64,000 nucleotides of DNA from Octopus sinensis (Eukaryota), in assembly GCF_006345805.1 (NCBI RefSeq), contig NC_042998.1, forward strand, positions 14,136,001 through 14,200,000. The letters run 5' to 3'. Of this stretch, positions 7,790-64,000 are shown one piece after another. The translations under genes were made by a program, and so were the position numbers. The notes below the pieces were generated by a model. The model ran no database searches, was not told the DNA's origin, and saw only the letters and a program-made list of their open reading frames with translations. Position 1 is the first letter of the stretch; each line of letters starts with the position of its first letter.

Positions 7790-8451
7790 CACAAAAACTG
7801 TAATTTATGCAGATGAGCAAATTCCACAACTAGAGTGGCACTTCAATTTATCAACTCCAGTGGGACGAAAGCTAAACTTGTCCTCATCGTGATTGGAACT
7901 CAGAGTTTTGTGTCAGACGAAAGACGTTAAAGTGACATATTCACACTCAAGTTATTATCCTATTTCTTTACTACCCACAAGGGGCTAAACACAGAGAGGA
8001 CAAACAAGGACAGACAAACGGATTAAGTTGGTTACAGCGACCCCAGTGCGTAACTGGTACTTAATTTATCGACCCCGAAAGGATGAAAGGCAAAGTCGAC
8101 CGCGGCGGAATTTGAACTCAGAACGTAGCGGCAGACAAAATACCGATTTCTTTACTACTCACAAGGGGCTAAACACAAAGGGGACAAACAAAGACACACA
8201 AACGGAATAAGTCGATTATATCGACCCCAGTGCGTAACTGGTACTTATTTAATCGACGCCGAAAGGATGAAAAGCAAAGTCGACCTAGGCGGAATTTGAA
8301 CTCAGAACGTAACAGCAGACGAAATACGGCTACGCATTTCGCCCGGCGTGCTAACGCTTCTGCCCGCTCGCCACCTTTTAACATAAAGGCAGACGAAATA
8401 TTGTCAAGCATTTCGACCGCCGCGCTAATGATTCTGCCAGCTCTCCACCTT
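7790..8451 (-). mobile_element. SINE family B cluster (young tandem units next to older diverged pieces)
   Basis: Two about 185-bp units plus head at 7960-8375, a second diverged head at about 8387-8450 and an old body at about 7790-7930. Confidence 0.8.
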
Positions 8452-9317
8452 TCACACTCAAATTATTATCGAAATTAAAAGTCCAGTCCAAAAACAGTAA
8501 TTCAGTGTCTCCTCGTGCGCATGAATTTAGTCTCCATCGTATTATTTAAAAGCAAATAGTCTTATTTTAGCGACCATTATACTATATATTAAAAAAATAT
8601 TCTATATATATTTTTTTCACTTTCGCTGACTAACATAATTCAAACAACAAACATTGTGTTCTAAGTAAATGTCTTGCGCGAATGAGCATAAAAATATCTC
8701 ATAACCTTTAATATAGGTTTGGCATACATCCAAATACTTCACCTTCATGTAATGCGTCAAGTGCAAGTTAACCTAATGGAATCTATCCTTTTCAAGCCAT
8801 TTAGCTTGACAAGAAATCGTAGTGTATGAGTAATACATGAAACGAATGGATAAGCAGGAAATTTACTTTCATTCCACAGTACTAAATAATGCTAGCCGAA
8901 GTATTTTCCTTTCAGGTCAGATTGTAAGGACAATTTATTAGCACACGATCAAAGTCGACTCGTTTACAACAGTTAGAAAAGCCCGCACATTCATTATGTA
9001 AAGGGACATGCGAAGGGAATAGATTTTAAAGGATATGATTAAATTCACAGAGATCTCGATGTGCGACTATCAGCAACATATCATAGAGTACTAGCGTATA
9101 TATGCTATATTATTTCCCAGAGTATTCGATTTTGAAAAAATGCAAAAATGTGCTAAACTTATCCGGAACAACTGATTATGGTCAGTGAAACTAAGCTGAC
9201 CATAAACTGACGTATGGCCAGTCATTTGCCTAAGCACTTCCTCTGGATAAATCATGGTAATAATGATTGCGTATACACGCAACAGCATTCCCTCAGTATG
9301 TACACTTACACAACACA

Positions 9318-9821: not shown

Positions 9822-10235
9822 GGCGGCGAGCTGGCAGAAACGTTAGCACGCCGAGCGAAATGCTTAGCTGTATTTCGTCTGCCGTTAGTTTTGAGTTCAA
9901 ATTCCGCCGACGTCAACTTTGCATTTCCCCCTTTCGGGGTCGATTAAATAAGTACTAGTTACGCACTGGGGTCGATATAATCGACTTAATCCGTTTTTCT
10001 GTCCTTGTTTGTCCTCTCGGTGTTTAGCCCCTTGTGGGTAGTAAAGAAATAGGTATTTCGTCTGCCGCTACGTTCAGAGTTCAAATTCCGCCGAGAACGA
10101 CTTTGCCTTTCATCCTTTCGAGGTCGATTAAATAAGTTCCAGTTACGCACTGGGGTCGATATAATCAACTTAATCCGTTTGTCTGTCCTTGTTTTTCCCC
10201 TGTGTGTGGAGCCCCTTGTGGGTAGTAAAGAAATA
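9822..10235 (+). mobile_element. SINE family B, two-unit copy
   Basis: Head GGCGGCGAGCTGGCAGAAACGTTAGC plus two tandem body units; TSD-like AGAAAGG(G)CAGAGAG at about 9800-9813 and 10238-10252. Confidence 0.88.
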
Positions 10236-11691: not shown

Positions 11692-11724
<33 letters not shown>

Positions 11725-11725
<1 letters not shown>

Positions 11726-11965
11726 GTAAAATAATATGGGACAATTATTCAATAGCCAAGATAAAACTCTGAGTTTCGGATGCCGTATTTCAGATGGCCA
11801 GATAACCGAAGAGATGGTGTTGTAGATTTCCACCTCGGCATCCGAAACTCGGAGTTTTATCTTGGCTATTGAATAATTGTCACATATTATTTTACAGATA
11901 AATTTCCTCTATTTACATAATATTAATGTCTCTTTCTTTCTTTTGTTATCTTACCGCTTTTACCA
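11725..11965 (+). mobile_element. (TA)n-embedded fold-back mini-element (PLE pseudo-LTR-like)
   Basis: 61-bp inverted arms 11725-11785 / 11836-11896 plus 70-bp unique 3' tail; (TA)n on both sides; hammerhead fold at 11797-11866. Confidence 0.75.
11797..11866 (+). ncRNA. putative minimal type I hammerhead ribozyme, U4C core variant
   Basis: Stem I GCCAGATAA / TTATCT(T)GGC; core CCGAAGA; stem II GATG...CATC(C); GAAA; near-palindromic stem III ACTC-G-GAGT; GTT triplet. Confidence 0.55.
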
Positions 11966-12367
11966 ATATATATATATATATATATCGGAGTAAATGCGCT
12001 AAGCAGTATTTACGTATAATCACAATTTAGGTTAGTTGAAAATTGTTTGTCACATATTTCAACTGCTATTTAATATTTCTTCACAAATATCTGTTCTCCC
12101 TTGTTCTCTCGCTTTGTACTTTCCAGGCATTTTCGATCAAATCTACCGCGAATTGACATGGAATCAGTTGATGGAAATGTAAACTTCATTTGCTTAAGGT
12201 GTCTTCGTGGTTCATTTCGCTATGAAGCATGTAGGCTGGATTTTATCTATTCCATTCCTTAATTTGTATATATTTATATGTATGTATATATATATGTATG
12301 TATGTATATATATATATGTATATATATATGTATATATATATATATATATAATATATATAATATATAT

Positions 12368-12628
12368 AGAAGCATCAATGATAGGTTCAAAGAACACCTG
12401 GACAACTAATTTGAAAGGAAGCCAAACTCCATATTCTACCAACATGCTGTAGACTGCCACAAGGGATCCTTAGGGAAGCTTAAGTTGAACATCCTATCAA
12501 CACATCCCACCGATGCAATGTTGAGACAGGTCACAGAAGCTGTTTGTATACAAGAATACAAACCTACTCTCAACCGAAAGTCCGAATGGAGTAACATCCA
12601 GATCCCATTGAGAAGGACTATTCTATAA
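12368..12628 (+). pseudogene. GIY-YIG endonuclease C-terminal fragment of a Penelope-like element (Naiad-like)
   Basis: Manual translation RSINDRFKEHLDN*FERKPNSIFYQHAVDCHKGSLGKLKLNILSTHPTDAMLRQVTEAVCIQEYKPTLNRKSEWSNIQIP: R..EH, H...H, RQ..EA..I, LN.K.EW motifs; one internal stop at 12407-12409. Confidence 0.75.
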
Positions 12629-12989
12629 CCACCCCTCTCTCTCTCTCTCCCTTTTACCTGTAGTCCTTACATACAGGTTGCAATGCGTATGTGCAGTTAT
12701 ATACAACGGTATGAGCGAACGTTGTTTGATACGTACAGTTGCACTTAGGCGTTGTATCCATTCACGGTTAGACGATGATGAGAGGAACAAACATACACCC
12801 ACACACATATATATATATGTGTGTGCGTCTATACAAACATATATGTGAATATGTATACAACCTTCAGCAAAGTAACAGTCATGTACACAACTTGGACGGA
12901 CACATGCCAGTACACGGACATACGTTCACATACACATACACATGTACACACTGACACGTCTGCCCATTCTCCTAGAAACTCACATACAT

Positions 12990-13230
12990 ACGTAGCACAT
13001 GAATGCAAACATATATACATACCTACGTATGGGCATATACACGTACATACGCACGTACATGTACGCACACACATACATGGGCACATGCATACGAGCGCGT
13101 ATACATACATACGCACATGCGTACGTATGTACATACACACATACATACACACATACATACACACACATACATACATACATACATACATACATACATACAT
13201 ACATACATACGCACATACATACATACATAC
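12990..13230. repeat. (CATA)n/(CA)n compound microsatellite
   Basis: Directly visible. Confidence 0.9.
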
Positions 13231-13586
13231 GCACAATAGTAAAATAATAGTTCTGTGATATAGAGATAAAGATCTGATAATAGTTTTTAGGGTATAGTTT
13301 TGGGAGTAAGCATCGTAAATCACTTTCTAGCTTCGGCCGTAGGAAGTTGAAATTTGATAGCTTTGTGATGAGTGGTCACTCTACATCCATCCATCGCTAC
13401 AGGTTTATAGCTTTATGTTTTATAGAGTGTATGTGCGTGCATATACACACACATACATATATATATACATACATACATACATACATACATACATACATGC
13501 ATACAGAGGCGTATGCACGTACATGCATACGTACATACATACACACATGTATGCATACATAGACACATACATACGTACATATATAT

Positions 13587-13813
13587 GACGAACTAACTGT
13601 TACTTTCTTAGATGCAGCACGGATTTTGTCAGTGAACAGGTCGCGGATTTTAGCGACGAAAATATTTTGACAAATTAAACTTAAATGTTGAAGTGAATCG
13701 AACGGCTTTTGTGTGTTTCTTAAATGGCTTATAAACACCTTCCACGCTGCAATTGTTTTCGTTTCAGCACACGATCTCAGATCAAAATACTTGCTATGCG
13801 AGTACATCTCCGT
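13587..13813 (+). mobile_element. (TA)n-abutting non-coding mini-element carrying a hammerhead variant
   Basis: Non-repetitive 230-bp island between microsatellites containing the fold at 13625-13674. Confidence 0.6.
13625..13674 (+). ncRNA. putative minimal hammerhead ribozyme with compensatory G3:C8 core
   Basis: TTTGTCA-GTGAACA-G-GTCGC-GGATTTTA-GCGAC-GAA-AATATT-T-TGACAAA: perfect 7-bp stem I, 5-bp stem II, palindromic stem III, core GUGAACA instead of CUGANGA. Confidence 0.65.
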
Positions 13814-13833
13814 AATATATAATATATATAATA

Positions 13834-13886: not shown

Positions 13887-14441
13887 CAACAATTGAGGGT
13901 AAAATTAATTAATTAATCAATTTCACCAAGTGTTCAGTATGCAAAGGGACCATTTAAGGCGAATTCAATATTATACATTATATAAAAGGGCTTAGTAAAT
14001 AAATACTTTGCCGCATACTATCTCATTAGAAATAGCAGCTAAAAAAACATTATAAAACTATTTCTAATACTTAAAGAAAACTCTCTCATATAGTGTTTGC
14101 TCAATTCAACTCACGGAAGTATGGGGGGTAGAGACATTAAAAAATCAGATGCAAAGGTTATTTGAGAAAGTACGTTTCAAGATTAGTCAACTCGACACTT
14201 CTATCATCAGCTCCGAACTCCCTGGTTTGGATTTGAAAACACTGAAAGTGGGAGCATACTCTTCGGCCTCCTATCGCTCTGAAGATCTACCCCCCATACT
14301 TCGTGAGTTGAATTGAGCAACACTATATGAGAGAGGTTTTCTTTAAGTATAGAAATAGTTTTATAATGTTTTTTAGCTGCTATTTCTAATGAGTTCAGTA
14401 TGCGGCAAAGTAATTTATTTTACTAAGCCCTTTTATATAAT
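13883..14441 (-). mobile_element. (TA)n-embedded fold-back mini-element (PLE pseudo-LTR-like)
   Basis: About 155-bp inverted arms 13977-14132 / 14286-14441, unique tail 13883-13976, degenerate hammerhead on minus strand at 14167-14214 (GGAG-CTGATGA...GAAACGTA-CTTT). Confidence 0.75.
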
Positions 14442-16337: not shown

Positions 16338-17292
16338 CTTTTCTACGCTAAGCACAAGGCCCGAAATTTGGTGGGAGATGGCCAGTCGATTAGATCGACC
16401 CCAGTACGCAACTGGTATTTAATTTATCGACTCCGAAAGGATGAAAGGCAAAGTCGACCTCAGTGGAATTTGAACTCAGAACGTAGACAGACGAAATAAC
16501 GCTAAGCATTTTGCCCGCCGTGCTAGCGTTTCTTATTTATTTACTGCCTACAAGGGGTTACACACGGAGGGGACAAACAAGCACTGACAAAGGGATTAAT
16601 TCGATTATATCGACCCCAGTGCGTAACTGGTACTTAATTTATTGACCCCGATATGACGAAAGGCAAAGTCGACCTCGGTAGAATTTGAACTCAGAACGTA
16701 ACGTCAGACAAAATACCGCTAAGCATTTGACCCGGTGTGTTAACGTTTCTTATTTCTTTATTGCCCACAAGGGGCGAAACATAGAGGGGCAAAGAAGGAT
16801 ATATAAAGGGATTAAGTCGATTACATCAAACCCAGTACGTAACTGGTACTTAATTTATCGACCCCGAAATGATGAAAGGCAAAGTCGACCTCGGCGGAAT
16901 TTGATCTCAGAACGTAAAGACAGATAAAATACCTATTTCTATTTCTTTACTACCCACAAGGGGCTAAACACAGAGAGGACAAACAATGTCAGAGAAAGGG
17001 ATTAAGTCGATTATATCGACTCCAGTGCGTAACTGGTACTTATTTAATCGACACCGAAAGGATGAAAGGCAACGTCAACCTCGGCGGAATTTGAACTCAG
17101 AACATAGCGGCAGAGAAAATACCGATTTCTTTACTACTCACAAGGGGCTAAATACAGAGGGGACAAACAAGGACACACAAACGGATTAAGTCGATTATAC
17201 CGACCCCAGTGCGTAACTCAGAACGTAGCTGCAGACGAAATACGGCTACGCATTTCGCCCAGCGTGCTATCGATTCTGCCAGCTCGCCGCCG
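16338..17292 (-). mobile_element. SINE family B tandem array (about 5 units)
   Basis: Repeated cgaccccagtgcgtaactggtac...gatgaaaggcaaagtcgacctcggcggaatttgaactcagaacgt units; complete head at 17235-17292. Confidence 0.88.
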
Positions 17293-19994: not shown

Positions 19995-21279
19995 TCAGGT
20001 CATCCTATAAGTTCTGTCCGAATTTTGAATAAAGAAAACAAATGATCAAATGTTATATTTAATTGAAATTCAATCATCAATGTACTTTCCCTGATTATCT
20101 ATGACTTCCTTCTATCTATTTACAAGCTTTTTAATCCCATCAATGTAAAACTCTTTTGGTTTCAGAGTGAAGAACTCTGAAATGTCAGTTTCGACCTCCT
20201 CCTGGCTTTCGAAAGTTATGTCCCCGAAATGATTCTGTAAATTACGACACAAATGGTAGTCTGAATGAGCAAGGTCGGGAGAATAAGGTGGATCAGGAAT
20301 GTTTTCCCAACCAAACTCTTCGATCTTCTGTGATGTGATCTTTGCATTGTGGGTTCGCGCATTCTCCTGATGAAACATCACTCCTATCCGATTCACTAAA
20401 GCGGGTTTTTTTCTTCAAAGCTTGGTTCAAACGCTCTAATTGCTGACAGTAGATTTGAGCATTGATTATTGGATTAGGTTGTAACAATTCAAACTGAATT
20501 ACGCCTTTGTAATCCCACCAGATAGAGAGAAGAACCTTTTTCCCATGAAGTTCCCTTCTTGGTTGTGTTTGAGCTTTTTCCCTTTTACCAAGCCACTGTT
20601 TACGACGTTTAACATTTCGATAGAAGGTTCATTTTTCGTCACCAGTCACAAGTCTATCCAAAAGGGGCAAAATGACTTCGCGAGAACGGAAACAAGAGCA
20701 GATGTCAACTCGAGATTTGCGGTTGCTTTCAGGACAATTCATGAGGCACCTATTTTCCAAGTTTAGGAATCTTTCCAAGTTGTTGAAAATGACGATTGAC
20801 AGTTGAACTAAGCTTTATTGTCAATTCTTCAACCGATAATGCAGGATTTCCTTCAAGTAATGTCTGAAGGAGCTTATCATCAAACTCAACTGGACGTCAT
20901 ATTCGATCCCCATCTTCAAGGCTAAAATCTCCACTTCGGAATTTTGCAAACCCTCTTCTGCAAGTTCTTTCACTCAAGCATTTTACCCATAAACTGAGTG
21001 TATGTTTCGAGTCGCTTCGGCTGCAGAGTTTCTTTTTTTGTACCCATAAGGTATTATGTGCCTCAAATACTCTTTGGACACTTCCATGTTTGGACACTTC
21101 CAAGGGTTTTAATCAAAGAATTTTTAATTCTATTATTTTGTAAAATAACATTTAATCAGTTTAAATCTACACAAGTGCATAAAAATAATTTTTAATTCCA
21201 TCAGTCATTCTAAAATACTATTAAATTTCATTCAATTTTAAACAAGTTAAAATCGGACAGAACTTATAGGATGACCTAA
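19995..21279 (-). mobile_element. full-length mariner DNA transposon (1285 bp), inactive
   Basis: TIRs TCAGGTCATCCTATAAGTTCTGTCCG / CGGACAGAACTTATAGGATGACCTAA with TA at 19993-19994 and 21280-21281. Confidence 0.93.
20070..21087 (-). pseudogene. mariner transposase pseudogene
   Basis: MEVSKEYLRH start, VPHEL, VTGDEK, HQENARTH, PPYSPDLAHSDYHL, ends GKYIDD*; multiple frameshifts and stops. Confidence 0.9.
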
Positions 21280-31572: not shown

Positions 31573-31736
31573 GATTTATCTGTTTCTCACTTTTGTAATA
31601 ATCTTCGATTTAAAAAAAAAAAAAACCCTCGGACTTCATTGGGCTCAGTCCACACAAACGCACGTGTGTGTGTCTTTGTGTGTGTAAAGTATTCCGCTGT
31701 TAAGTAAAGAACTGGATCAGAATTCACCTTCAAATC

Positions 31737-32331
31737 CGGTAACATTTGCCGGTCATTCGGAAAGCTCACAGCAGCCATATTCCTACCGCTCTATGTCACG
31801 CTGGTGAGACTCATATTTGAGTACGGGATTCAAGCCTCTTCTCCTTATCTCCTCAAAGACATACAGCATCTCGAAATAGTCCAGAAGCTGGCTACCCGCA
31901 TGGCTCTTGGTCTCAAGCATTTGTCTTATGAAGAAAGGCTGAAGACGCTCGACCTTTATTCTGTAGAAAAACGACTACGCCGTGGTGATCTCATTCTTGC
32001 TCACAATATCATAAGCGGAAAGTGTAACCTCTCGAAAGAGCTGTTCTTCACTCCTGCACCAGAGCGTCGGCTGCGGGGTCACTCCGAAAAGCTCTATCTG
32101 CGACGATTTCATCTCAATCGAAGGAGAGGGGCTTTCTCCGTCCGGGTTGCGGATCCGTGGAATAAGCTACCGGACGAGATAGTGAAGATGCCGACGACCG
32201 CTCGGTTCAAAGCCTCCCTTGACCACAAATGGCCTGAACTCTTTGCATGAACACCACCCTGTACATAACTCCATGTCCCACTACATGGCCTTGCTTTTTG
32301 CTTTTTGAGCCAAAAAATTAACTTAACTTAA
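31737..32331 (+). mobile_element. CR1-clade LINE, 5'-truncated 3' end of ORF2 plus 3' UTR
   Basis: LYVTLVRLIFEYGIQASSPYLLKDIQHLEIVQKLATR...LSYEERLKTLDLYS...RRGDLI...FSVRVADPWNKLP; stop at 32250; (ACTTA)n tail. Confidence 0.9.
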
Positions 32332-55024: not shown

Positions 55025-55676
55025 TGTGTATGTATTTTTGTACATATATATATATATATCAAGTAGTTGTAGGTAAGCTCTAAAAAGCAATGATATTTAT
55101 GATAAGGAATCCCAGGACAGAAGTAACTGCCATTCTCCCACCCATCCTTGCTTATAGCCAGTTTAAATTTTGATTACAACTTACCCGAGAATGATATTAC
55201 ATTTCTTAAATATTACTTAAATTATGTCTCTTCGAATTTCCTTGTGTGAATATTGTACTGCGTGTGTTTAGAAATAAGCATCGTCATGCATAAGTGTGTT
55301 ATGATCAATCTTCATATAACTCACTTTATAATATGAAAATCAATAGAAAAATTAATTTCGATTTATGGGATTTCATATTACATTAAGATAATCAGGAAGG
55401 CGATGGATTCCTGTATAACACAATGCGCGAATCCGTTCCAGTAATGTATTCTATAAAACGTGAACAAGCACTAGAGAATAAAAATCCTATTTTCTTCTCT
55501 CAGTCTTCCTGTATAGACAGTTGTAATTATTAATTGATAATTACAAGAATCAGTTAATGAGTACATTTCTCACAATATTTTTGATCTTGAGAAGCATTCC
55601 GTTTGATATTGAGTTAAATGTTGGTAGTAACAATATGAATTTATACATGATTTGCTGAGTCGGGTGTCTAATTTTC

Positions 55677-56064
55677 ATTTGTGCCTCTTACTAAATAACC
55701 CGATGGTGGTTATATTGAATATTTGTATTGAAGTGAGGATGAAAATAACGTAAAACGTGTGTCGAAATCTCAGTGGTCAAGGCTAAAATGGATGTTTAGT
55801 CTACTTTTTATTTGTGCCTCTTACTAAATAACCCGATGGTGGTTATATTGAATATTTGTATTGAAGTGAGGATGAAAATAACGTAAAACGTGTGTCGAAT
55901 TCTCATTGGTCAAGGCTAAAATGGATGTTTAGTCTACTTTTTATTTGTGCCTCTTCCTAAATATCCCGATGGTGGTTATATTGAATATTTGTATTGAAGT
56001 GAGGATGAAAATAACGTGAAACTTGTGTCGAAATCTCAGTGGTCGAGGCTAAAATGGATGTTTA
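55677..56064. repeat. tandem repeat, 133-bp unit x 2.9
   Basis: tttgtgcctctt starts at 55678, 55811 and 55944; units nearly identical. Confidence 0.92.
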
Positions 56065-56725: not shown

Positions 56726-57859
56726 CATACTTATTTGTGTCTGTGTACGAATAGGTTCATATATGTGTGTGTATGTATTTATCTATGCATGTATGAACTA
56801 TGTGTTTACGGAAAGAACTTTAGTTTTGTGAATCTAATCAATACTTTATCATTTTCTAGAAGAAAATCTGGCTGTTTTATTTTAGCATCACTGTTTTATT
56901 TTTAATACTTCTCTTAACCTCCCTTTCTTTACCAAAAATACCTTCTGTTGCATCGATATTCAGCATCTTGTAAAATGATTGAAACGTAAATATTTTAGAA
57001 TTAGTAGTTTTCAACTTGTAAAGAATCATAACGTATGGTTGCATTCATAAAGAGAATTTTTTTGTCCTTTTTTTGTATTGTTATTTCATTTTATACTTCG
57101 TTTTTCCTTGAATACTTTTGTGACGTTTGAGGGTCAAATTAGTTTGTTAAACCTTGTTACGATTCTTCCGAACAATAACACAAATTCTTTTTTCAAAATT
57201 TCTGTCTGTGATAAATTTTATTTTTTACGTTTTGCCGTAAATATTACAATAGTTCAGAGCCACATATCTGTGAATTCATACTACCGTTTTAAACATTTGG
57301 CTTTCCTTTCTCAAATTTCTCATGTCCTATAAACATATCTAGTTAATGTACCATTGCAATCTGACTGTGAATAGGAACGATATAGAGACACAGTTCAACG
57401 CTCTAAACAGCAGCTGCAATTATTAATTCGTAATTGATATATTTACAATGTTCTGTTAAACTCTTCTCTAAAATCGAGAGTAGGGATTAAGCACCTCTAA
57501 CGACATTGATATAAACACACGAAGCAATATAAATCACGTTCTTAGTAATCGAACATTGCATTGGTTAAGGAAAAGCACTTGCATCACCACTAGTAAATTC
57601 CCGTAAGGCAAATGCAGAATGAGAAAGTTACACATTGTGTTTCCTCATCGTTAATACCTTGCGTCCATTAGCTGATGCTCGCAATATTTTGTTAAAGCTT
57701 ACTTTGGGATGGAATGCAGCAGCAACAACTCCTCCGCAAATTCCAAGCCTTGAAAGATGAAATACACAATAACAGTTATTCGATAACATTTTGAGTAAAT
57801 ATTCGTTAGACTCTGAGCGATTGCTTACAGGACAATTCCTCCTCACACAAGACAAAACA

Positions 57860-58425
57860 TCTCCAGAATTGAGTCACCCCAGAGGGCTCTCACTAAACAA
57901 ATTGAAGGCATGGCTGCTCTCGATTATTGGGATCGCCTTAAAGCCTTGAAACTTTACTCCCTCCAGCGTCGCCGTGAGCGGTACATCATTTGTACGATGT
58001 GGAAAATATACCGCCAACTTTGCCCAAACGACCTAAACATTAGCTTCAAGGTTCATCCAAGACTTGGACCACGGGCTATACGTCCCCTGCCCAATTCAAG
58101 ATCACAATATACATGTACACTGCAACATAATTTCTTTTCCTCAACAGGCCCTGCTCTATTTAACATTGTCCCGAGGGAGATCAAAGAGGAAAGGATCCCA
58201 TCAACTCTAAACAGAGTCTGGATAGATTCCTTCAAAGAATACCAGATAAGCCACCCATAACTGGATACAACTCACCCAACAAGAACTCACTACTTGAACA
58301 AAACTTGACTTAAACAAAACTTGACTTAAACAGGATTCGAATAATCCTATCAGGTGGTGCTATTAAGTTAGACATGGCCTGGACCAATCTTTGGTCGAAA
58401 CATATCTAAGTTTATCTAAGTTTAT
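57860..58425 (+). mobile_element. CR1-group LINE, 5'-truncated 3' end
   Basis: IESPQRALTKQIEGMAALDYWDRLKALKLYSLQRRRERY...GPALFNIVP; 3' UTR hairpin and (ATCTAAGTTT)n tail. Confidence 0.88.
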
Positions 58426-63303: not shown

Positions 63304-64000
63304 TCAGGTCATCCTATGAGTTCTGTCCAAATTTTTAATAAAGAAAACAAAAGATCAAATGTCATATTTAATTGAAAATTAATCATCAATGTACTTTTCC
63401 TGATTATCTATGACTTACTTTCATCTATTTACAAGCTTTGTAATCCCATCAATGTAAAACTCTTTTGGTTTCAAAGCGAAGAACTGTAAAATGTCAGTTT
63501 CGACCTCCTCCTGGCTTGCGAAAGTTATCTCCCGCAAATGATCCTGTAAACTATGAAAGAAATGGTAGTCTGAAGGAGCAAGGTTGGGAGAATATTGTGG
63601 ATGAGAAATTTTTTCCCAACCAAGGTCTTCAATTTCTGTGATATGATCTTTGCAGTGTGGGGTCGCGCATTGTCCTAATGAAATATCACTCCTTTTCGAT
63701 TCTCTAAAGTGGGTCATTTCTTTGTTCAAAGCTTCGTTGAAACGCTCTAATTATTGACAGTAGACTTGAGGATTGATTGTTGCATTAGGTGGTAACAATT
63801 CAAAGTGAATTACTCTTGCGCAATCCCACCAGATATAGAGAAGAACCTCTTTTCCATGAAGTTCCCTTCTCGGTTGTGGTTGAGCTTTTTCCCTTTTACG
63901 AAGCCACTGTTTACGACATTTAACATTTCGATAGAAGATCTATTTTCCGTAACCAGTCACAAGTCTATCCGAAATGGGTGAGATGAGTTCGCGGGAATGG
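63304..64000 (-). mobile_element. mariner transposon (same family as 19995-21279), runs off window; interrupts the PLE
   Basis: TA|TCAGGTCATCCTATGAGTTCTGTCC TIR; QYSPNLAPSDYHFF; colinear with 19995-20690. Confidence 0.92.

What the first reader, a model, noticed from the sequence alone, without database searches (positions are those of the whole stretch)
13625..13674. Natural hammerhead with swapped core pair (G3:C8)
Seen: TTTGTCA GTGAACA G GTCGC GGATTTTA GCGAC GAA AATATT T TGACAAA; all helices are perfect and the only core changes are C3G and G8C together, plus one extra G before stem II and a UUU triplet. Established: C3-G8 form a Watson-Crick pair in the active hammerhead and double swaps can restore activity. 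Inference: a compensatory change implies selection for function, and standard CUGANGA searches would miss this family entirely.
Basis: partly seen in the sequence, partly recalled or inferred. Interest (0 to 1): 0.82.

Follow-up and report, generated by a model that had tools for sequence, protein, structure and literature searches.

The report
Swapped-core hammerhead in octopus retrotransposon
A jumping gene present in thousands of copies in what is likely an octopus genome carries a small hammerhead RNA motif whose two paired core letters are swapped (G3-C8 instead of C3-G8); its relatives keep that pair in other forms, so it likely still cuts itself, slowly and in pairs, but cutting is untested.

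Summary
The motif is real. It lies in the 3' pseudo-LTR of a 5'-truncated Penelope-like retrotransposon (PLE). 5,276 genomic copies match its core. G3:C8 is the family state: 74 of 79 unbiased copies, and no C3:G8 copy. The sister family has C3:G8 at the same place. Eight related elements from metagenomes have C:G (6) or U:A (2) and never a mismatch. On the protein tree G:C is derived. The swap is therefore natural covariation in a minimal, dimer-type PLE hammerhead. Cleavage is untested and probably weak: stem III forms only between two copies, and most copies were reverse-transcribed with the ribozyme uncut. Evidence against strict need: 178 G3·G8 copies, including a small propagated sublineage, and A9C in the sister family. 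In print I found natural U3:A8 and engineered C3G/G8C partial rescue, but no natural G3:C8; four key papers were not held. This scan already noted G3:C8 in phages and protist PLEs. Verdict: new variant of a known kind, interest 0.42.

The parts
12367..13815 (+). 5'-truncated copy of a Penelope-like retrotransposon (family A), set between (TA)n tracts
   Evidence: 92.8% match to the near-full-length copy L040; common 3' end in 30 copies; flanking TA arrays
12374..12628 (+). C-terminal remnant of the element's ORF (GIY-YIG-type endonuclease end), interrupted by one stop
   Evidence: unbroken in L040 (839 aa), whose relatives hit RVT_1 and GIY-YIG and whose model matches telomerase RT best
12629..13609 (+). 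3' untranslated part of the element, with (TACA)n tracts
   Evidence: shared by other copies
13610..13610 (+). likely transcription start of the pseudo-LTR (inferred)
   Evidence: 68 of 100 copies begin at 13604-13629, mode 13610; 12 of 14 copies starting here have a G in front where the element has C/T
13625..13631 (+). hammerhead stem I, 5' strand
13632..13639 (+). core G3 U4 G5 A6 A7 C8 A9 plus inserted G
13640..13657 (+). stem-loop II (5 bp; the loop differs between subfamilies)
13658..13667 (+). G12 A13 A14, palindromic stem III block AAUAUU, U17 (predicted cut after 13667)
13668..13674 (+). hammerhead stem I, 3' strand
13724..13815 (+). first 30 codons of the element's ORF, which shows that this end is a pseudo-LTR; includes the 'tail' from about 13758 to 13815
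   Evidence: in L082/L083 this frame runs on into the ORF; 3' ends cluster at 13753-64 (37 of 100) and 13814-15 (50 of 100)

Best explanation
It is the minimal type I hammerhead motif in the pseudo-LTR of a Penelope-like retrotransposon, with the core pair fixed as G3:C8 where relatives have C3:G8 or U3:A8, and it likely still self-cleaves after U17, slowly and only when two copies pair or the element's protein assists. Shown: position in the pseudo-LTR, fixation in the family, and Watson-Crick covariation across related elements. Inferred: transcription starts about 15 nt upstream of stem I. In a transcript spanning two pseudo-LTRs, the two AAUAUU palindromes would form a 6-bp stem III and both sites could be cut, giving a unit-length RNA. 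Short transcripts with one motif would stay uncut and be pasted back whole, which would explain the thousands of ~150-200 nt copies that retain it. The fixed U17 may have allowed G3, because C17 could pair with G3 and trap an inactive fold.
For: (1) Element identity: unbroken 839-aa ORF; telomerase RT is the best fold match; RVT_1 and GIY-YIG in 3 of 24 aligned relatives each; the 3' end reads in frame into the ORF start; inverted partners near 42 of 100 copies. (2) Fixation: 92 of the first 100 of 5,276 matches, 74 of 79 unbiased copies, 78 of 100 in an older-looking loop class; 0 C3:G8. (3) Covariation: the sister family has C3:G8 in 40 of 43 parsed copies (2,811 matches). 9 of 12 metagenome loci with DNA past the ORF end (8 elements) carry the motif on the sense strand 90-400 nt downstream, with C:G in 6 and U:A in 2. 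The pair is standard in 11 of 11 rows; covariation score 0.885 against 0.231 shuffled and at most 0.19 slid. Family A is sister to B (SH-aLRT 100), so G:C is derived. (4) Subfamily changes fall in loop II (4 alignment columns at 38-50%), and the one common stem change keeps a U·G pair. (5) Stem III block fully self-complementary in 10 of 11 rows, with six different sequences. (6) C3G/G8C partly restores cleavage in a lizard PLE hammerhead, which needs the element's protein (PMC11167929). (7) U17 in 93 of 93 family A copies against C17 in 31 of 43 family B copies; G3-C8 reported less active with C17 than with G17 (data not shown there; PMC3884650). (8) Suggestive only: mismatched 3:8 cores in 4 of 7 pseudo-LTRs joined to the ORF against 5 of 79 background (p 0.002; 3 of 6, p 0.01), as expected if intact ribozymes there are cut.
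Against: No cleavage data. Only 2 of 100 copies begin exactly at the cut site, and both are inversion junctions through stem I, while 79 of 100 begin upstream of the core. G3·G8 occurs 178 times against 19 for C3·C8, in all subfamilies, and four independent copies share a linked stem II change, so a mismatched master did propagate. The sister family spread with A9C (90 of the first 100 matches). The dimer is predicted only 0.6 kcal/mol better than two monomers. In the lizard element, ribozyme mutants did not affect insertion in vitro. Three motifs (L102, L105, L115) were found with a looser pattern or by eye, and all rows were chosen for their structure, which inflates. The tree is a quick one without bootstrap.
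Confidence: 0.68

Rival explanations
1. The fold is kept but no longer cuts to any useful extent. It serves as a structure near the 5' end of the RNA (binding of the ORF protein, translation) or overlaps the internal promoter, and the 3:8 pair is kept for folding.
For: The motif lies at about +16 to +65 from the inferred start site, where Penelope has internal promoter elements (PMC2377424). Most copies are uncut; A9C in the sister family and in L103; cleavage dispensable in vitro.
Against: The 3:8 pair belongs to the active conformation (PMC3884650). U4, G5, A6, A13 and A14 are invariant in 11 rows while the stems turn over. A DNA promoter role would not explain pairing covariation.
Confidence: 0.22
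2. The ribozyme died in the ancestor of family A, and two neutral changes happened to be complementary and were amplified by a successful master.
For: G3·G8 copies exist and spread. Only one origin of G:C is seen here, and a second hit is complementary one time in three.
Against: All other core positions, three stems and the palindrome stay intact across subfamilies up to about 5-8% diverged while loop II changes. G:C is the majority even in the older class. Both other changes at position 3 in the clade are also compensated.
Confidence: 0.09
3. A chance hairpin in AT-rich DNA.
For: Folding z-score only -1.36; no Rfam match.
Against: Canonical hammerheads at the homologous place in the sister family and in other organisms; 0.6 sites expected per 95 kb shuffled against 5 found; Rfam also misses those.
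Confidence: 0.01

Closest known systems
Minimal type I hammerheads of Penelope-like elements (Cervera and de la Pena 2014, PMC4209133)
   Same: Located in the pseudo-LTR, sense strand; nucleotide inserted between 9 and 10.1; G10.1-C11.1; palindromic stem III; U17 common; thousands of solo copies and opposite-strand pairs.
   Different: G3:C8. None of the 56 motifs in their Fig. S3 has G3; their natural variant is U3:A8. The inserted base is G (their consensus H; G in one row). Stem I is longer (7 bp).
Poseidon element PAc hammerhead of Anolis (Frangieh et al. 2024, PMC11167929)
   Same: PLE hammerhead at the ORF start; 'tail' with two 3' ends; the engineered C3G/G8C form partly cleaves; uncut RNA is the main template.
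   Different: There the swap is a laboratory mutant and here it is the natural state. This element has a Cys linker before the endonuclease, which Penelope/Poseidon lacks; the start codon lies 56 nt past the cut site, not inside the ribozyme.
Natural core variants of hammerheads (Perreault et al. 2011, PMC3088659)
   Same: Covariation at 3 and 8 seen in nature.
   Different: The passages read report U3:A8 only.
Neptune/Nematis clades of PLEs (Craig et al. 2021, PMC8557442)
   Same: RT followed by CX2-5CxxC linker and C-terminal GIY-YIG-type endonuclease; (TA)n targets; inverted 5'-truncated partners.
   Different: The clade was not placed against reference sequences here.

Membership tests
Type I hammerhead ribozyme | Three-way junction, stems I and II around the core | tested here: met
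Type I hammerhead ribozyme | Literal CUGANGA box | tested here: not met
   GUGAACA in 92 of first 100 matches; 0 C3:G8
Type I hammerhead ribozyme | Watson-Crick pair between positions 3 and 8 | tested here: met
   G:C here; C:G or U:A in relatives, 11 of 11 rows paired
Type I hammerhead ribozyme | U4 G5 A6, A9, G12 A13 A14, A15.1-U16.1, H17 | tested here: met
   (majority at every position; U17 93 of 93)
Type I hammerhead ribozyme | Stem III within one molecule | tested here: not met
   left open in the predicted fold; +5.4 kcal/mol to force one pair
Type I hammerhead ribozyme | Self-cleavage after position 17 | not testable with these tools
   only contigs were available for laying; needs an assay
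Type I hammerhead ribozyme | Loop I-loop II tertiary contacts of fast hammerheads | not tested
   loop II varies between subfamilies, as in minimal PLE motifs
PLE minimal hammerheads | Position in the pseudo-LTR, sense strand | tested here: met
PLE minimal hammerheads | Palindromic stem III for dimer pairing; extra base before stem II | tested here: met
Penelope-like elements, endonuclease-bearing | Single ORF with telomerase-like RT and C-terminal GIY-YIG | tested here: met
   ORF; fold closest to TERT, E 9e-7, low TM-scores; Pfam hits in relatives but not in the ORF itself; motif positions (motif names partly recalled)
Penelope-like elements, endonuclease-bearing | Pseudo-LTR, tail, inverted truncated partners | tested here: met
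Neptune versus Nematis clade | CX2-5CxxC linker | tested here: met
   CQSNCAVC at residue 710; definition
Neptune versus Nematis clade | Placement on an RT tree with reference elements | not tested
   no reference proteins were held
Non-LTR retrozymes (tandem arrays of hammerhead units) | Head-to-tail arrays of short units | tested here: inconclusive
   copies are mostly dispersed or inverted pairs; two to three direct repeats in L322-L325

The most novel reading that the evidence does not exclude
The family is a genomic record of what PLE hammerheads do in vivo. The G3:C8 ribozyme cuts only in two-copy transcripts, so pseudo-LTRs that survive joined to the ORF are enriched for dead cores while single-copy capped RNAs insert uncut. 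The swap itself went through a viable G3·G8 stage that is still visible, and was permitted by a fixed U17.
Probability: 0.25. Interest if true: 0.7.

Novelty: new variant of a known kind. Interest (0 to 1): 0.42.

Why it matters
It completes, with natural sequences from one clade of elements, the covariation test of the hammerhead's hidden core pair: C:G, U:A and G:C all occur at homologous sites. That argues that PLE hammerheads, whose role is open and which look dispensable in vitro, are still selected for the active conformation. It also shows that CUGANGA descriptors can miss thousands of motifs in one animal genome, so PLE families scored as lacking a hammerhead should be rescanned. The family offers matched natural variants (G:C, G·G, C:G with A9C, U17 versus C17) for direct assay. 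The chemistry is not new: the swap is known to work partly as a laboratory mutant.

Tried and rejected
Rfam at gathering and E-value thresholds gave no hammerhead match for the window or for canonical relatives, so it is uninformative. Pfam and PDB sequence searches of the element's own ORF found nothing. Expression: no RNA holder was listed on record, and only contigs could be laid, which cannot show ends or strand; they gave only the lead to the loop II subfamilies. A search of the genome with a distant homolog returned only families A and B (stricter first look, so not proof of absence). My first guess that the 3' end joins the ORF directly was wrong; further codons lie between. 'G3·G8 is one ancestral subfamily' was not supported, because it is scattered over all loop types at the same divergence; it is richer in an older-looking class (9 of 100, p 0.008) but is still the minority, so relic intermediate versus reversion or hotspot is unresolved. 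An intron ending at 13611 was suggested by a branch-point-like motif, but no copy showed a spliced junction. Copy starts at the cut site were sought and are not enriched. The one C3:G8 hit among held loci belongs to a decayed B-like element. The careful tree did not finish; the quick tree was used. Earlier-notes look-ups by place and by sequence were empty. Not held: Lunse 2016, Przybilski and Hammann 2007, Nelson and Uhlenbeck 2008, Martick and Scott 2006. The window's own broken endonuclease remnant was not scanned against Pfam; its identity rests on its match to L040.

Full report
Observation. The 50 bases are as described and are the only hit of a type I descriptor with any 3:8 pair in the window. 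Stems I (7 bp) and II (5 bp) are perfect. Stem III (AAUAUU) cannot close in one molecule: the predicted fold leaves it open, one forced pair costs 5.4 kcal/mol, and a two-copy structure is only 0.6 kcal/mol better than two monomers. Rfam finds nothing here or in canonical relatives.

Context. The motif is part of a repeat. A pattern over stem I and the core, with positions 3 and 8 left free, has 5,276 exact matches in the 2.7-Gb genome and 0 for the reversed control; a marker 3' of the motif has 9,883. The window copy runs 12367-13815 between TA tracts and matches L040 at 92.8%. L040 holds an unbroken 839-codon frame. Pfam and PDB sequence searches of it are blank, but 139 homologs exist, 3 of 24 aligned rows hit RVT_1 and 3 hit GIY-YIG, and the model (pLDDT 85) matches telomerase RT best (low TM-scores). 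The frame has YVDD, a CX3CxxC linker and a C-terminal endonuclease-type motif set, which by the definitions in PMC8557442 (passages) points to Neptune or Nematis; I did not place it on a reference tree. The bases after the hammerhead read from ATG 13724 in frame into the ORF in L082 and L083, so this end is a pseudo-LTR. 3' ends cluster at 13753-64 (37 of 100) and 13814-15 (50 of 100), the PLE tail signature, and 42 of 100 copies have an opposite-strand partner within 450 nt. The host is inferred to be an octopus, because a protein named Octopus vulgaris falls inside family B.

Is G3:C8 the family state? Yes. It is found in 92 of the first 100 pattern matches, 74 of 79 informative copies among 100 picked by the downstream marker, and 78 of 100 in an older-looking loop class. 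Genome-wide within the pattern there are 178 G3·G8, 19 C3·C8 and 0 C3:G8. Subfamily differences lie in loop II; minor-letter fractions are 0.029 in the core, 0.020 in stem III and 0.239 in loop II, and the one frequent stem change keeps a U·G pair. Clonal copies cannot by themselves show selection.

Is it compensatory? A sister family (about 54% protein identity) carries the same architecture at the same place, with C3:G8 in 40 of 43 parsed copies of 44 held, A9C in 37 and C17 in 31. Of 26 metagenome relatives, 12 have DNA beyond the ORF end. A strict scan found five motifs, all sense and just downstream, against 0.6 expected in shuffles. A looser scan not requiring the 3:8 pair added L105, and I read L102 and L115/L117 (one element, G12A) by eye. 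L108, L110 and L111 had none. The eight elements show C:G six times and U:A twice. In the 11-row alignment the pair is standard in all rows (C:G 7, G:C 2, U:A 2); the whole structure scores 0.885 against 0.231 shuffled and at most 0.19 slid, with the caveat that rows were chosen for structure. The stem III block is self-complementary in 10 of 11 rows. A quick protein tree of 31 rows joins A and B (SH-aLRT 100) among C:G and U:A relatives, so G:C is derived, and all three changes at position 3 are compensated.

How it likely works. 68 of 100 copies begin at 13604-13629, most often at A13610, and 12 of the 14 that begin there have a G in front where the element has C or T. This fits copying of a cap on a transcript starting 15 nt before stem I, although several of those G's could come from inversion junctions or target DNA. 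Most copies thus came from RNA with an uncut ribozyme, as expected for a motif that is inert alone. Only 2 of 100 start at the cut site, both at junctions through stem I. In a two-pseudo-LTR transcript the palindromes could pair and both sites be cut, the model of PMC4209133 (main text parts 1-2 of 4 read), where such motifs cleaved weakly as dimers. One hint of cleavage in vivo: among 21 loci holding the ORF start, seven events have a hammerhead directly joined to the ORF, and four of these have a mismatched 3:8 pair, against 5 of 79 in the background (p 0.002; p 0.01 if two tandem copies count once). The numbers are small and these copies look older. U17 is fixed in A while B is mostly C17; PMC3884650 (passages) reports, without showing data, that G3-C8 is less active with C17 than with G17, so U17 may have been permissive (inference).

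Against. G3·G8 is nine times commoner than C3·C8, occurs in every subfamily at equal divergence, is 9% of the older class, and in four independent copies is linked to a stem II change, so mismatched masters could spread. Family B spread with A9C. In the Anolis element, ribozyme mutants did not impair insertion in vitro and cleavage needed the protein (PMC11167929, passages). Cleavage is therefore probably slow and not needed for every insertion.

Prior knowledge. Natural U3:A8 is reported (PMC3088659 passages; PMC4209133). Engineered C3G/G8C partial rescue is reported (PMC8495972, one passage). None of the 56 motifs in Fig. S3 of PMC4209133 (supplement file 2, parts 1-2 of 3; file 1 not searchable) nor the hammerhead table of PMC8557442 has G3. 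Searches (listings) showed no natural G3:C8. I also read passages of PMC6765202, PMC6155905, PMC2377424 and bioRxiv 10.64898/2026.07.22.740005 (the preprint's supplements were not seen). Lunse 2016, the largest survey of PLE hammerhead variants, was not held and could contain such cases. Seven earlier notes of this scan describe G3:C8 motifs in protist PLEs and phages (unchecked), so the swap is not unique to this genome; what this case adds is a high-copy animal family with a phylogenetic frame.

Verdict. A genuine PLE hammerhead with a naturally swapped core pair: new variant of a known kind. Probability that it still cleaves as described is about 0.68. Interest 0.42.

Noticed in passing
G000 family B, e.g. 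L096:6864-6911 and L103:2490-2537: Sister family (2,811 matches) and one metagenome relative carry C at the normally fixed A9; a minority of family B copies (4 of first 100) keep A9. Possibly a second tolerated core variant.
   Followed up: partly
L102:4966-5016: Related hammerhead with U15.1-A16.1 in place of A15.1-U16.1 and a palindromic stem III, followed by a pseudo-LTR-like repeat of the ORF start.
   Followed up: partly
window 13592-13611: Branch-point-like ACTAAC, pyrimidine tract and AG just before the hammerhead, at the inferred start site; PLE 5' regions often hold introns, but no spliced copy was found.
   Followed up: partly
L128, L130, L131, L148, L149, L153, L154: A head-to-head pair of short pseudo-LTRs with one shared junction has been amplified as a unit (7 of 30 loci of the second loop type), a palindromic non-autonomous derivative; several carry a stem II change.
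   Followed up: no
L225, L248 (G000 C1): Inversion junctions that use the stem I repeat itself, one arm starting exactly at the predicted cut site.
   Followed up: partly
window 11718-11903: 186-nt palindromic element, 68-nt arms 94% complementary, beside a TA tract; MITE-like.
   Followed up: no
window 13978-14440: Nested inverted repeats (22, 25 and 56 nt arms) right after the PLE; another copy flanks L014; MITE-like.
   Followed up: no
window 7962-8452, 9870-10235, 16384-17218: Tandem arrays of a 184-216 nt SINE-like unit; resembles octopus OR2 SINE from recall, not tested.
   Followed up: no
window 20112-20628 and 63421-63750 (minus strand): Frames that read like mariner/Tc1 transposase fragments (label recalled).
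   Followed up: no
window 31708-32250 and 57817-58260: Frames that read like the C-terminal end of LINE (CR1/L2-type) ORF2 (label recalled).
   Followed up: no
window 55666-56064: Three copies of a 133-nt tandem unit, 95% alike; not examined.
   Followed up: no
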